Part shown: piece by piece, positions 61,104 to 62,371 of the stretch
How the letters are laid out: each line of letters opens with the position of its first letter
How positions within the stretch are numbered: position 1 is the stretch's first letter
Origin: an uncultured candidatus Porisulfidus sp.
GTDB taxonomy: Bacteria; Pseudomonadota; Gammaproteobacteria; Poriferisulfidales; Oxydemutatoraceae
Direction of reading: 5' to 3'
NCBI GenBank assembly: GCA_965215125.1
Contig: OZ244052.1
Location: 1,664,001-1,728,000, forward strand
Length of the DNA stretch: 64,000 bases
Program-made: the position numbers and the translations under genes
Notes under the pieces: generated by a model
What the model saw: the letters and a program-made list of their open reading frames with translations, nothing else
What the model was told of the DNA's origin: nothing
Database searches by the model: none

Positions 61104-62371
61104 GGGAACTATATAGTTAACTTGACAAAGAAATGTTAAATTATATCAATGCAAACCCATAGAACAATTAGATACCATTTATATCCGGCGACACAGAAAA
61201 AACACCGGCAATTATATGGCACAGCAGGCGCATGCCGCTATGTCTGGAATCACTTTGTAGCCAAGCTGAAGGACGAATACGAGTATTACGGCGAAAGCCG
61301 GTTTAAATTCTTCACCCTAGGCAAGCAATTTACGACATTAAGAAAGTATTGCGACCAGTGGTTGCAAGGTTATTCCGCTTATATCGTCAAATCGTCATTA
61401 CAACCGATAGAGATAGCATACAAAGGATTTTTCAAGGGCAACAACGGATTGCCGAAGTTTCAGGGGAAATATAGGCATAGCCCGTCATTCCCGATCAATT
61501 ATCAATCGGCAAAGATATCAGCTTCTCACTTGTATATACAGAAGCTAGGCTGGATGAAGTTTGCCGGTGGCGATAGGTATAAAGGTGAGAAGTTTGTATC
61601 CGGTCAAGTCAAGTATGAATGTGGTAAATGGTATGCATATATCATCTATGAAGTGGAAGTGCCAAGCAGGTCGCATCCAGCGGTAGCAGTAGGACTAGAT
61701 AGGAATTGTGGTCAGGTCGCATTGTCGGACGGAACGATGTATCACCTGCCCGACTTAAAGCGTAAGGAGGCAAGGCGTAGGCGTTATCAGCGAATGGTTG
61801 CTAGACAGGTGAAGGGGAGCAACAGGCGCAAACTAGCAAAACATAGGCTACGGAAAGCGTATCAAGCGGAGCGGTTTGCGAGGGCGAATTGGTGTCATCA
61901 AACCAGCCGGTTAATAGCAGACCAATACGACATTGTGTATATGGAAGGATTGAATACAGCCGGCATGACGAAGTCGGCGAAAGGGACGATAGACAACCCG
62001 GGTAAGAATGTGAGGGCAAAGTCAGGTTTGAACAGGGAGATACTAAAGAGTGGCTGGTATAAACTGGAGCAATGCTTAAGCTACAAGGCCTGTATAGAAA
62101 AGGTCAATCCGGCCTATACGAGTCAAACCTGTAATCAATGCGGAAGCGTAAATAAAGTAAACCGTAAGACCCGATCAATTTTCAAGTGTCGGCATTGCGG
62201 ACACGAGGACAATGCGGATGTAAATGCTGCATTAAACATTTTGGCGGCTGGGAGTGCTGCAACCGGATGTGGAGACGGCGACAGTGGCAACACAAGTCGG
62301 TCAATGAAGCGTCAAAAAGATAGGGTGGCAAGGCAGGCTAAAAAGTCTGTCAAGTTACCTATATAATTCCC
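61104..62371 (+). mobile_element. Non-autonomous TIR-bounded element carrying only tnpB (IS1595-like ends inferred)
   Basis: Left end GGGAACTATATAGTTAACTTGACA (61104-61127) and right end TGTCAAGTTACCTATATAATTCCC (62348-62371) are 22/24-identical inverted repeats; no transposase inside. Confidence 0.8.
61149..62366 (+). CDS. tnpB: RNA-guided endonuclease TnpB
   Basis: N-terminal YHLYP…GACRYVWN; RuvC-I VGLD, RuvC-II YMEGL, zinc finger CNQC…CRHC, RuvC-III NADVNAALNI; KSGLNREIL. Confidence 0.95.
   Translation: MQTHRTIRYHLYPATQKKHRQLYGTAGACRYVWNHFVAKLKDEYEYYGESRFKFFTLGKQFTTLRKYCDQWLQGYSAYIVKSSLQPIEIAYKGFFKGNNGLPKFQGKYRHSPSFPINYQSAKISASHLYIQKLGWMKFAGGDRYKGEKFVSGQVKYECGKWYAYIIYEVEVPSRSHPAVAVGLDRNCGQVALSDGTMYHLPDLKRKEARRRRYQRMVARQVKGSNRRKLAKHRLRKAYQAERFARANWCHQTSRLIADQYDIVYMEGLNTAGMTKSAKGTIDNPGKNVRAKSGLNREILKSGWYKLEQCLSYKACIEKVNPAYTSQTCNQCGSVNKVNRKTRSIFKCRHCGHEDNADVNAALNILAAGSAATGCGDGDSGNTSRSMKRQKDRVARQAKKSVKLPI

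What the first reader, a model, noticed from the sequence alone, without database searches (positions are those of the whole stretch)
61104..62371. TnpB enclosed by terminal inverted repeats: a candidate RNA-guided nuclease carried by a DDE (IS1595-like) transposon
Seen: tnpB with all three RuvC acidic residues and the zinc finger fills a 1,268-bp unit bounded by 24-bp inverted repeats (GGGAACTATATAGTTAACTTGACA versus the reverse complement GGGAATTATATAGGTAACTTGACA, 22/24 identical). The stop codon lies inside the right repeat and no transposase is present. Established: the classical prokaryotic tnpB carriers (IS200/IS605 with Y1 HUH transposase, IS607 with serine recombinase) lack terminal inverted repeats, which are the hallmark of DDE elements. 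From memory, GGnnAtTAT-type ends resemble the ISNwi1 group of the IS1595 family, known to carry passenger genes. Inference: a non-autonomous element mobilised in trans by a DDE transposase, a prokaryotic parallel to Fanzor capture by TIR transposons.
Basis: partly seen in the sequence, partly recalled or inferred. Interest (0 to 1): 0.9.

Follow-up and report, generated by a model that had tools for sequence, protein, structure and literature searches.

The report
TnpB cargo in IS1595-type transposon
This is a small jumping gene that carries only an RNA-guided nuclease (TnpB) but has the inverted ends and 8-base target duplications of a cut-and-paste IS1595 transposon, so it must borrow its transposase; the arrangement was outlined in print in 2023, and here the flanks also hint at the nuclease's target motif.

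Summary
Window 61104-62371 is a 1,268-bp element: two 24-bp inverted ends (22/24) enclosing an intact tnpB and nothing else. The genome holds 5 full-length and 2 internally deleted copies with the same boundaries and 8-bp target duplications. Two copies have empty sites in sister genomes. Neither a Y1 nor a serine-recombinase domain was found in the genome. Transposase-bearing IS1595-family elements with the same ends (24/24 and 23/24) exist in two same-genus genomes. The window's genome holds only an IS1595 relative whose ends match 18/24. Of 83 related tnpB elements, 64 have such ends, and they form one clade that excludes a classical Y1-linked TnpB. The last ~160 nt carry a conserved, covarying RNA structure that incorporates the right end, like a guide-RNA scaffold. 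New here: 41 of 41 independent insertions have a purine just upstream of the left target duplication (T-A in this subfamily). The mirrored side shows this in 20 of 41, and transposase-only relatives in 13 of 32 sides. This looks like a TAM footprint. The principle is published (Altae-Tran 2023), and this scan has noted IS1595-type TnpB cassettes on other DNA. I rate it a new member of a known kind.

The parts
61093..61095 (+). ATA just upstream of the left target duplication: candidate TAM (target-adjacent motif) footprint
   Evidence: In this TIR subfamily, position -2 is T in 10 of 11 independent insertions and position -1 is A in 11 of 11. Position -1 is a purine in 41 of 41 insertions across the clade. 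The TA dinucleotide frequency in the genome is 6.7%. The function is inferred.
61096..61103 (.). Left copy of the 8-bp target site duplication (AAAGGTTT)
   Evidence: It matches the right copy at only 5/8. In G001, homology of the left flank runs to the base before 61104 and then stops.
61104..61127 (+). Left terminal inverted repeat (IS1595-type end, GGGAAcTATATAG...TTGACA)
   Evidence: The same end bounds transposase-bearing IS1595-family elements in G001 and G004.
61149..62366 (+). tnpB, 405 aa, intact RuvC D-E-D residues and C4 zinc finger
   Evidence: dN/dS is 0.13-0.22 in the 8 copy pairs with an unsaturated estimate, of 10 compared.
62213..62313 (+). Three conserved hairpins (62213-62231, 62244-62260, 62266-62313) inside the 3' end of tnpB: guide-RNA (omega RNA) scaffold candidate
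   Evidence: RNAalifold was run on 24 elements. Of 22 pairs, 99.1% of cells are paired, against 30-45% when the partners are slid. Cells changed on both sides number 63, against 4-14. None of 500 shuffles reached the score. Coordinates were mapped. Synonymous divergence is depressed in the last 60 codons.
62323..62360 (+). Terminal hairpin whose 3' arm is the inner half of the right inverted repeat
   Evidence: z = -3.26 for the window copy. In 9 of 12 elements with different end flavours the 5' arm changes together with the end sequence.
62348..62371 (-). Right terminal inverted repeat; contains the tnpB stop codon
62372..62379 (.). Right copy of the target site duplication (AAAGTATA, degenerate)
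62372..62391 (+). Predicted guide portion of the omega RNA (read-through into the target duplication and flank)
   Evidence: This is inference only, by analogy with IS605/IS607 TnpB and Fanzor (PMC10711439, passages seen). No RNA run was available.

Best explanation
Window 61104-62371 is a non-autonomous derivative of an IS1595-family (DDE) insertion sequence. The transposase gene has been replaced by tnpB plus the RNA scaffold encoded in its 3' end. Shown: it moves as a unit defined by the 24-bp inverted ends and makes 8-bp target duplications. Inferred: an IS1595-family transposase supplied in trans recognises those ends. The cognate 1,276-bp element is present in two same-genus genomes and was not found in this one. 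Mobility here is therefore either past or depends on cross-recognition by the resident IS1595 relative, whose ends match 18/24. Also inferred: TnpB is made from the element, and its guide RNA ends with a hairpin built from the right inverted end and reads on into the target duplication and right flank. The nuclease would then recognise the uninterrupted (empty) version of its own insertion site. There the same sequence is preceded by the left-flank motif (T-A here; mostly T/G-G in other subfamilies), which would act as the TAM. Cutting empty copies and repairing them from an occupied copy would fix and retain insertions. Only insertions that landed next to a TAM in the right orientation would survive, which is what the flanks show. 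The confidence given is for the architecture and trans-mobilisation; the TAM and homing part alone I put at about 0.5.
For: Mobility and boundaries:
- There are 5 full-length copies (100, 97, 85, 84 and 78% identity) and 2 internally deleted copies, all ending at the same bases.
- Target duplications are 8/8 in 2 copies, 7/8 in 3, and 5/8 in the window copy.
- The site of copy c2 is empty in G001-G004, with a single TAGCTAAT. The site of copy d6 is empty in G003.

Partner transposase:
- IS1595-family elements with ends 24/24 and 23/24 identical lie in G001 and G004; the G004 transposase is intact.
- Other end flavours are likewise shared between transposase-bearing and tnpB-bearing elements.
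- Similarity between the two kinds of element is limited to the terminal 28-32 bp.
- All 17 of 41 related genomes that have this tnpB also have a PF12762 match, against 8 of the 24 without it. Kin are not independent.
- No Y1 or resolvase domain was found in the genome.

Clade:
- Of 83 elements, 64 have inverted ends scoring at least 28, 43 have duplications of at least 7/8, and 29 have perfect duplications.
- All lie in one clade (SH-aLRT 100) that excludes E. coli insQ next to a Y1 tnpA.

TnpB function:
- Catalytic residues are conserved, and dN/dS is 0.13-0.22.

RNA:
- The covarying structure and the end-containing hairpin are documented.

TAM footprint:
- A purine stands at position -1 on the left in 41/41 insertions, against 20/41 on the mirrored right (Fisher p = 3e-8).
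- Transposase-only IS1595-type elements show it in 13/32 sides (p = 2e-9).
Against: - No transposase with matching ends was found in this genome. Its two IS1595-family copies have ends that match only 18/24.
- The two cognate elements in G001 and G004 lack clean target duplications, and the G001 transposase is truncated to 275 aa.
- No transposase and tnpB were ever seen inside one pair of ends, so the capture event itself is not documented.
- The window copy's own duplication is 5/8. Its right flank has no counterpart in relatives, so this copy has no clean empty site.
- Of the 83 elements, 19 gave no convincing ends. One viral homologue at 48% identity (L161) shows none.
- No sigma-70 consensus promoter was found in 60950-62550.
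- Only the window copy's terminal hairpin beats shuffles on its own.
- The guide, the TAM and homing rest on correlation and analogy. Nothing was measured.
- The tree used few outgroups and a quick search.
Confidence: 0.82

Rival explanations
1. It is a classical IS200/IS605 'IS1341-type' tnpB-only element. A Y1 HUH transposase moves it as single-stranded DNA, and its ends merely happen to be inverted repeats.
For: Pfam and NCBIfam place the protein in the TnpB/OrfB_IS605 family. tnpB-only elements are a recognised group of that family (review PMC13565253, passage seen).
Against: Copies have 8-bp target duplications and there are empty sites. IS200/IS605 elements make none and have no terminal inverted repeats (PMC13565253). 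No Y1_Tnp or Resolvase domain was found in the 99%-complete genome. The ends are identical to those of IS1595-family elements. The protein scores 162 bits against the 425-bit cut-off of NF038281 IS200_TnpB.
Confidence: 0.02
2. The copies in this genome are stranded fossils. With no cognate transposase they no longer move, and TnpB is kept for a host or other non-transposon role, such as RNA-guided regulation or defence.
For: No transposase with matching ends was found in this genome or in G003. Four of 5 full-length copies keep an open frame under purifying selection. TnpB domestication is documented elsewhere (PMC10705468, search listing and abstract only).
Against: Copies c2 and d6 inserted after the split from G003. 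Copies reach 97% identity. Domesticated TnpBs are usually single-copy and often catalytically dead (recalled), whereas the RuvC residues here are intact. The one-sided flank motif fits a transposon-linked role.
Confidence: 0.12
3. The one-sided purine upstream of the left duplication is a target preference of the particular transposases that move tnpB elements. It would then have nothing to do with a TnpB TAM, and TnpB would be a mere passenger.
For: The control elements are not proven to be the very transposases that moved each tnpB subfamily. There are only 16 control insertions, 8 of them from one element in G006.
Against: The two ends of each tnpB element are near-identical, so a transposase preference should be mirrored. 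It is not: 41/41 against 20/41. The transposase-only element with ends 22/24 identical shows T-A before the duplication in 0 of 8 copies. The motif changes with TnpB subfamily: T-A in the window subfamily (10 of 11), and G at -1 with C at duplication position 1 in all 4 elements of its sister group (L020, L022, L032, L033, read). It also sits where a TAM must lie if the guide starts after the right end.
Confidence: 0.3

Closest known systems
DDE-transposase-associated TnpB branches (DDE-1 to DDE-6) and solo TnpBs within the same ends (Altae-Tran et al. 2023, PNAS, PMC10691335; section 9 read)
   Same: tnpB lies inside inverted terminal repeats of a DDE transposon. The tnpB 3' end is within 250 bp of the transposon end. 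Solo copies have ends near-identical to transposase-bearing elements, implying mobilisation in trans.
   Different: The main text names only IS630 for DDE-6, and 'IS1595' occurs 0 times. A 2026 review lists ISL2, IS630 and IS1031 (PMC13565253). No element here has transposase and tnpB in cis.
IS1595 family of insertion sequences, including passenger-carrying forms
   Same: The ends are the same as those of elements encoding NF033547/PF12762 transposases. Target duplications are 8 bp (8/8 perfect in the G006 element). The terminal GGGAATTAT fits the family's GGnnnTTAT-type end as I recall it from ISfinder.
   Different: There is no transposase inside; tnpB is the only gene. The ISNwi1-group assignment could not be tested.
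IS200/IS605 family, IS1341 group (tnpB only)
   Same: The protein family is the same, with a single tnpB gene and an RNA scaffold overlapping its 3' end.
   Different: IS200/IS605 elements have hairpin ends, no inverted repeats, no target duplication and a Y1 transposase (PMC13565253). Here there are inverted ends, 8-bp duplications and no Y1 in the genome.
Fanzor1 (and Fanzor2*) nucleases in eukaryotic and viral TIR transposons (Bao and Jurka 2013, PMC3627910, listing only; Yoon et al. 2023, PMC10711439, passages)
   Same: Both are non-autonomous TIR/TSD elements carrying only the nuclease. The inverted repeat is predicted to be part of the guide-RNA scaffold, and the guide lies beyond the transposon end.
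   Different: This element is bacterial, with a compact 405-aa canonical TnpB. The partner is a prokaryotic IS1595 transposase.
MITEs (miniature inverted-repeat elements) and standalone omega RNAs
   Same: Short derivatives of 140-368 bp with the same ends occur in G001, G003, G005 and G010. One keeps the last 95 nt of the tnpB element.
   Different: The window element is the full-length, protein-coding form.

Membership tests
IS1595 family (as a non-autonomous derivative) | Terminal inverted repeats shared with an element that encodes an IS1595-family DDE transposase | tested here: met
   G001:C1:2748248-2749523 and G004:C2:89680-90955 are 1,276-bp elements with ends 24/24 and 23/24 (G001) identical to the tnpB-element consensus. 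The G004 transposase scores 190 bits on NF033547 (cut-off 75) and 131 bits on PF12762.
IS1595 family (as a non-autonomous derivative) | 8-bp target site duplication | tested here: met
   Own copies score 8/8 twice and 7/8 three times. Empty sites hold a single copy of the 8-mer. Of 83 related tnpB elements, 29 have perfect duplications. That 8 bp is typical of the family is recalled; it was confirmed here on 8 of 8 copies of a transposase-bearing member.
IS1595 family (as an autonomous member) | Encodes its own DDE_Tnp_IS1595 transposase with an N-terminal zinc ribbon | tested here: not met
   The only long ORF inside is tnpB. No transposase lies within any tnpB element's ends.
IS1595 family, ISNwi1 group | Group-specific transposase clade and end consensus as curated in ISfinder | not testable with these tools
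   ISfinder is not available. A literature search for IS1595 + ISNwi1 + ISPna2 found 0 papers.
IS200/IS605 family | No terminal inverted repeats and no target duplication; subterminal hairpins; Y1 HUH TnpA in cis or in trans | tested here: not met
   Inverted ends and 8-bp duplications are present. PF01797 was not found in the genome, while the control genomes ring in 6 of 14.
IS607 family | Serine-recombinase TnpA; no inverted repeats or target duplication | tested here: not met
   PF00239 was not found in the genome. The protein scores 76.5 bits on NF038280 IS607_TnpB against a cut-off of 350.
TnpB (RNA-guided endonuclease) protein family | HTH/REC, RuvC with D-E-D and a zinc-finger TNB domain; family-level HMM above cut-off | tested here: met
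   NF040570 guided_TnpB scores 198.9 bits against a cut-off of 100. Three Pfam domains are above cut-off. ISDra2 TnpB structures match at E about 5e-28 over residues 9-376. D184, E266, D357 and four Cys are invariant.
TnpB (RNA-guided endonuclease) protein family | Guide RNA encoded at the 3' end of tnpB and running past the transposon end | tested here: inconclusive
   A conserved covarying structure is present and synonymous divergence is depressed at the 3' end. There are no RNA data and no Rfam match.

The most novel reading that the evidence does not exclude
A whole clade of TnpB nucleases lives only as transposase-less cargo inside IS1595-type shells. It enforces its own survival through a gene-drive-like step. 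After a DDE-made insertion, the guide RNA (read from the right end into the target duplication and flank) directs TnpB to the still-empty copies of that site. Only insertions that happen to lie just downstream of a TAM (T-A here, T/G-G elsewhere) get fixed. The 41 of 41 one-sided purine would then be a natural read-out of TAMs for dozens of uncharacterised compact nucleases. It would also be the first evidence that homing works with a cut-and-paste DDE partner in bacteria.
Probability: 0.4. Interest if true: 0.65.

Novelty: new member of a known kind. Interest (0 to 1): 0.45.

Why it matters
TnpB is the ancestor of Cas12 and a compact genome-editing enzyme. Its biology has been worked out only with Y1 and serine-recombinase partners, which excise without a scar. 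A recent review (PMC13565253, passages seen) discusses why TnpB is rarely linked to DDE transposases in prokaryotes. This locus and its relatives give a well-delimited natural system for that question. The system comprises about 80 tnpB elements, the cognate transposase-bearing elements, miniature derivatives and empty sites. It shows that the DDE association can be stable across a whole TnpB clade. It also offers a concrete, cheaply testable prediction of the TAM and guide position from flanks alone. If the prediction fails, the element is still a clean example of an arrangement already outlined in 2023, and is then of modest interest.

Tried and rejected
- RNA evidence: no RNA holder was listed for window 60900-62600.
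- DNA contigs: contigs from 4 coded runs bridge both junctions of the window copy and show no joint across the element. Contigs drop rare variants, so this says nothing about empty alleles.
- Metagenome scan: a scan of metagenome contigs for the 24-mer end found 0 matches.
- Viral contigs: only 4 relatives were found, and none had recognisable IS1595-type ends.
- Rfam: only the two tRNAs matched.
- Promoters: the consensus promoter scan found 0 sites.
- Literature: searches for TnpB + IS1595 (9 papers, none on this topic by title or abstract start), for TnpB + ISL2 + IS1031 + IS630 (1 paper), for IS1595 + ISNwi1 + ISPna2 (0 papers) and for 'IS1595 family' features gave no description of this association.
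- Empty site for the window copy: I looked in G001-G004. The left flank is conserved up to the element, but the right flank has no match.
- Copy c4: the flanks in relatives are not contiguous enough to call an empty site.
- Composite element: I considered one with transposase and tnpB in cis. The nearest pairs (G001, G003) are separate elements about 2 kb or more apart.

Full report
**What is there**

Window 61104-62371 is bounded by GGGAACTATATAGTTAACTTGACA and the reverse complement of GGGAATTATATAGGTAACTTGACA, which match at 22/24. Between them lies one gene, 61149-62366, of 405 aa. Its stop codon sits inside the right repeat.

The protein has the three Pfam domains of TnpB. It scores 198.9 bits on NCBIfam guided_TnpB, against a cut-off of 100. 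It stays far below the cut-offs of the IS200- and IS607-specific TnpB models. It matches the solved ISDra2 TnpB structures over residues 9-376 at E about 5e-28. D184, E266, D357 and four zinc-finger cysteines are invariant among nine clade members.

**It is a mobile unit with a DDE signature**

The window lies in a single-contig genome of 2.22 Mb. That genome holds five full-length copies (100, 97, 85, 84 and 78% identity) and two internally deleted copies, and all end at the same bases. One deleted copy is itself interrupted by an IS3-family element.

Flanking 8-bp direct repeats are perfect in two copies and 7/8 in three. In the window copy they match at only 5/8.

Two insertions are younger than the split from sister genomes:
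- The site of copy c2 is uninterrupted in G001, G002, G003 and G004 and holds one TAGCTAAT.
- The site of d6 is uninterrupted in G003.

For the window copy, the left-flank homology in G001 stops exactly at the first base of the repeat. The right flank has no counterpart there.

Neither a Y1 transposase domain nor a resolvase domain was found in this 99%-complete genome.

**The partner**

The genome has two near-identical copies (3 mismatches) of a 1,294-bp IS1595-family element. One has a perfect 8-bp duplication. Their ends match the tnpB element at only 18/24.

A pattern search in 19 genomes of the family found the tnpB-type end in 11 of them, and the reversed control pattern in none. Among the hits are two 1,276-bp elements, G001:C1:2748248-2749523 and G004:C2:89680-90955. 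Their ends are 24/24 and 23/24 (G001) identical to the tnpB-element consensus.
- They encode an IS1595-family transposase, intact at 306 aa in G004 and truncated to 275 aa in G001.
- They resemble the tnpB element only in the terminal 28-32 bp.
- Neither copy has a clean target duplication.

Other 'flavours' of the end are likewise shared between transposase-bearing and tnpB-bearing elements in related genomes.

All 17 of 41 related genomes that have this tnpB also have a PF12762 match, against 8 of the 24 without it. Kin are not independent, so this is only suggestive. No transposase was seen inside the same pair of ends as a tnpB.

**The clade**

The 31 loci and 49 further full-length matches (fetched) gave, with the own copies, 83 elements at about 30-100% protein identity, from gammaproteobacterial MAGs.
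- 64 had inverted ends scoring at least 28.
- 43 had duplications of at least 7/8.
- 29 had perfect duplications, and 40 were unique sites.

A quick maximum-likelihood tree of 83 proteins put every end-bearing element in one clade (SH-aLRT 100, 77 rows). Eight pseudogenes or short rows were dropped first. That clade excluded the three plasmid TnpBs used as outgroups, one of which sits next to a Y1 tnpA.

Limits: outgroups were few. Nineteen elements gave no convincing ends. One viral homologue inside the clade (L161, 48% identity, long branch) shows none.

**RNA**

An alignment of the last 240 nt plus 20 nt of flank from 24 elements gives three hairpins with compensatory changes.
- On 22 pairs, 99.1% of cells are paired, against 30-45% with slid partners.
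- 63 cells are changed on both sides, against 4-14.
- None of 500 shuffles reached the observed score.

In window coordinates the hairpins are 62213-62231, 62244-62260 and 62266-62313.

A further hairpin at 62323-62360 uses the inner half of the right inverted end as its 3' arm. In 9 of 12 elements with different end flavours the 5' arm changes in step, with one more partial case and two without. Only the window copy's fold beats shuffles on its own.

In the 8 of 10 copy pairs where dS is not saturated, dN/dS is 0.13-0.22. Synonymous divergence is depressed in the last 60 codons in 9 of the 10 pairs, for example 0.24 against 0.83. This fits an overlapping RNA constraint.

Together this looks like a TnpB guide-RNA scaffold that incorporates the transposon end, as predicted for Fanzor elements (PMC10711439, passages). 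No RNA data exist, and Rfam has no match.

**A one-sided flank motif**

I oriented 41 independent insertions by tnpB. The base just upstream of the left duplication is a purine in 41 of 41.
- In the window's end subfamily, the two bases are T-A in 10 of 11, and the first base of the duplication is A in 10 of 11.
- In other subfamilies the -1 base is G in 24 of 30.
- The mirrored position on the right is a purine-equivalent in 20 of 41 (Fisher p = 3e-8).
- In 16 transposase-only IS1595-type insertions it is a purine in 13 of 32 sides (p = 2e-9).
- TA makes up 6.7% of dinucleotides in the genome.

Two rows were dropped before the count: L019, which shares a right flank with L018, and L042, which was misregistered. 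One control row (L134) has a doubtful duplication.

This is the position a TAM must occupy if the guide starts after the right end and the target is the empty site. I read it as a probable TAM footprint (about 50-60%). It is correlation only.

**Comparison with the known**

The principle is in print. Altae-Tran et al. 2023 (PMC10691335, section 9 read) report six DDE-associated TnpB branches with inverted terminal repeats, and solo TnpBs within near-identical ends that are mobilised in trans. Their main text names IS630 and never IS1595.

A 2026 review lists ISL2, IS630 and IS1031 (PMC13565253, passages).

This scan has also noted TnpB cassettes with IS1595-type ends in at least six other genomes.

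**Verdict**

This is a real, well-supported new member of a known kind. Its added value is the identified cognate transposase elements, the clade-wide consistency, the RNA structure, and the testable TAM footprint.

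Noticed in passing
window 60824-60912 and 60947-61017 (- strand): tRNA-Leu(taa) and tRNA-Cys(gca) lie just left of the element. The element sits 87 bp upstream of the tRNA-Cys 5' end, so it may have displaced that gene's upstream region.
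   Followed up: no
G000:C1:965821-967272 (locus L007 about 49-1500): A 1.45-kb IS3-family element (NF033516, 242 bits) is inserted into the left end of one internally deleted tnpB copy (d7).
   Followed up: partly
L152 (G018:C186:1122-4360): A 3.2-kb IS1595-type element has a related end (GGGGACTATATATTTAACTTGACA). It holds a 312-aa IS1595 transposase and several small ORFs without Pfam families, so it may be a passenger-carrying form.
   Followed up: partly
L136-L142 (G001:132313-132535; G003:396851-397074, 421896-422035, 1149330-1149527, 2197522-2197747; G005:757576-757755; G010:1352722-1353089): These are miniature elements of 140-368 bp with the same ends. Two have perfect 8-bp duplications. 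One (140 bp) is the left 46 plus the right 95 nt of the tnpB element, so it may act as a standalone guide-RNA carrier.
   Followed up: partly
G000:C1:769526-770819 versus window 61096-61103 and 62372-62379: The second IS1595 copy of the genome has a degenerate duplication (AAAACTTT / AAAATATA) of the same odd pattern as the window tnpB copy (AAAGGTTT / AAAGTATA). This is unexplained and may be chance.
   Followed up: no
window 62465-64000 (+): A large ORF with a signal-like N-terminus and a GLUG motif (PF07581) lies directly right of the element. This flank has no counterpart next to the tRNA genes in four same-genus genomes.
   Followed up: no
G000:C1:1291236-1292432; G001 and G004 copies: Some copies are pseudogenes. 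Copy c2 (97% identical to the window copy) has one TAA, and three copies in G001/G004 carry 1-2 stops.
   Followed up: no
L161 (IMG/VR contig, 601-1749): A TnpB at 48% identity on a viral contig falls inside the clade on a long branch, but has no recognisable IS1595-type ends.
   Followed up: partly
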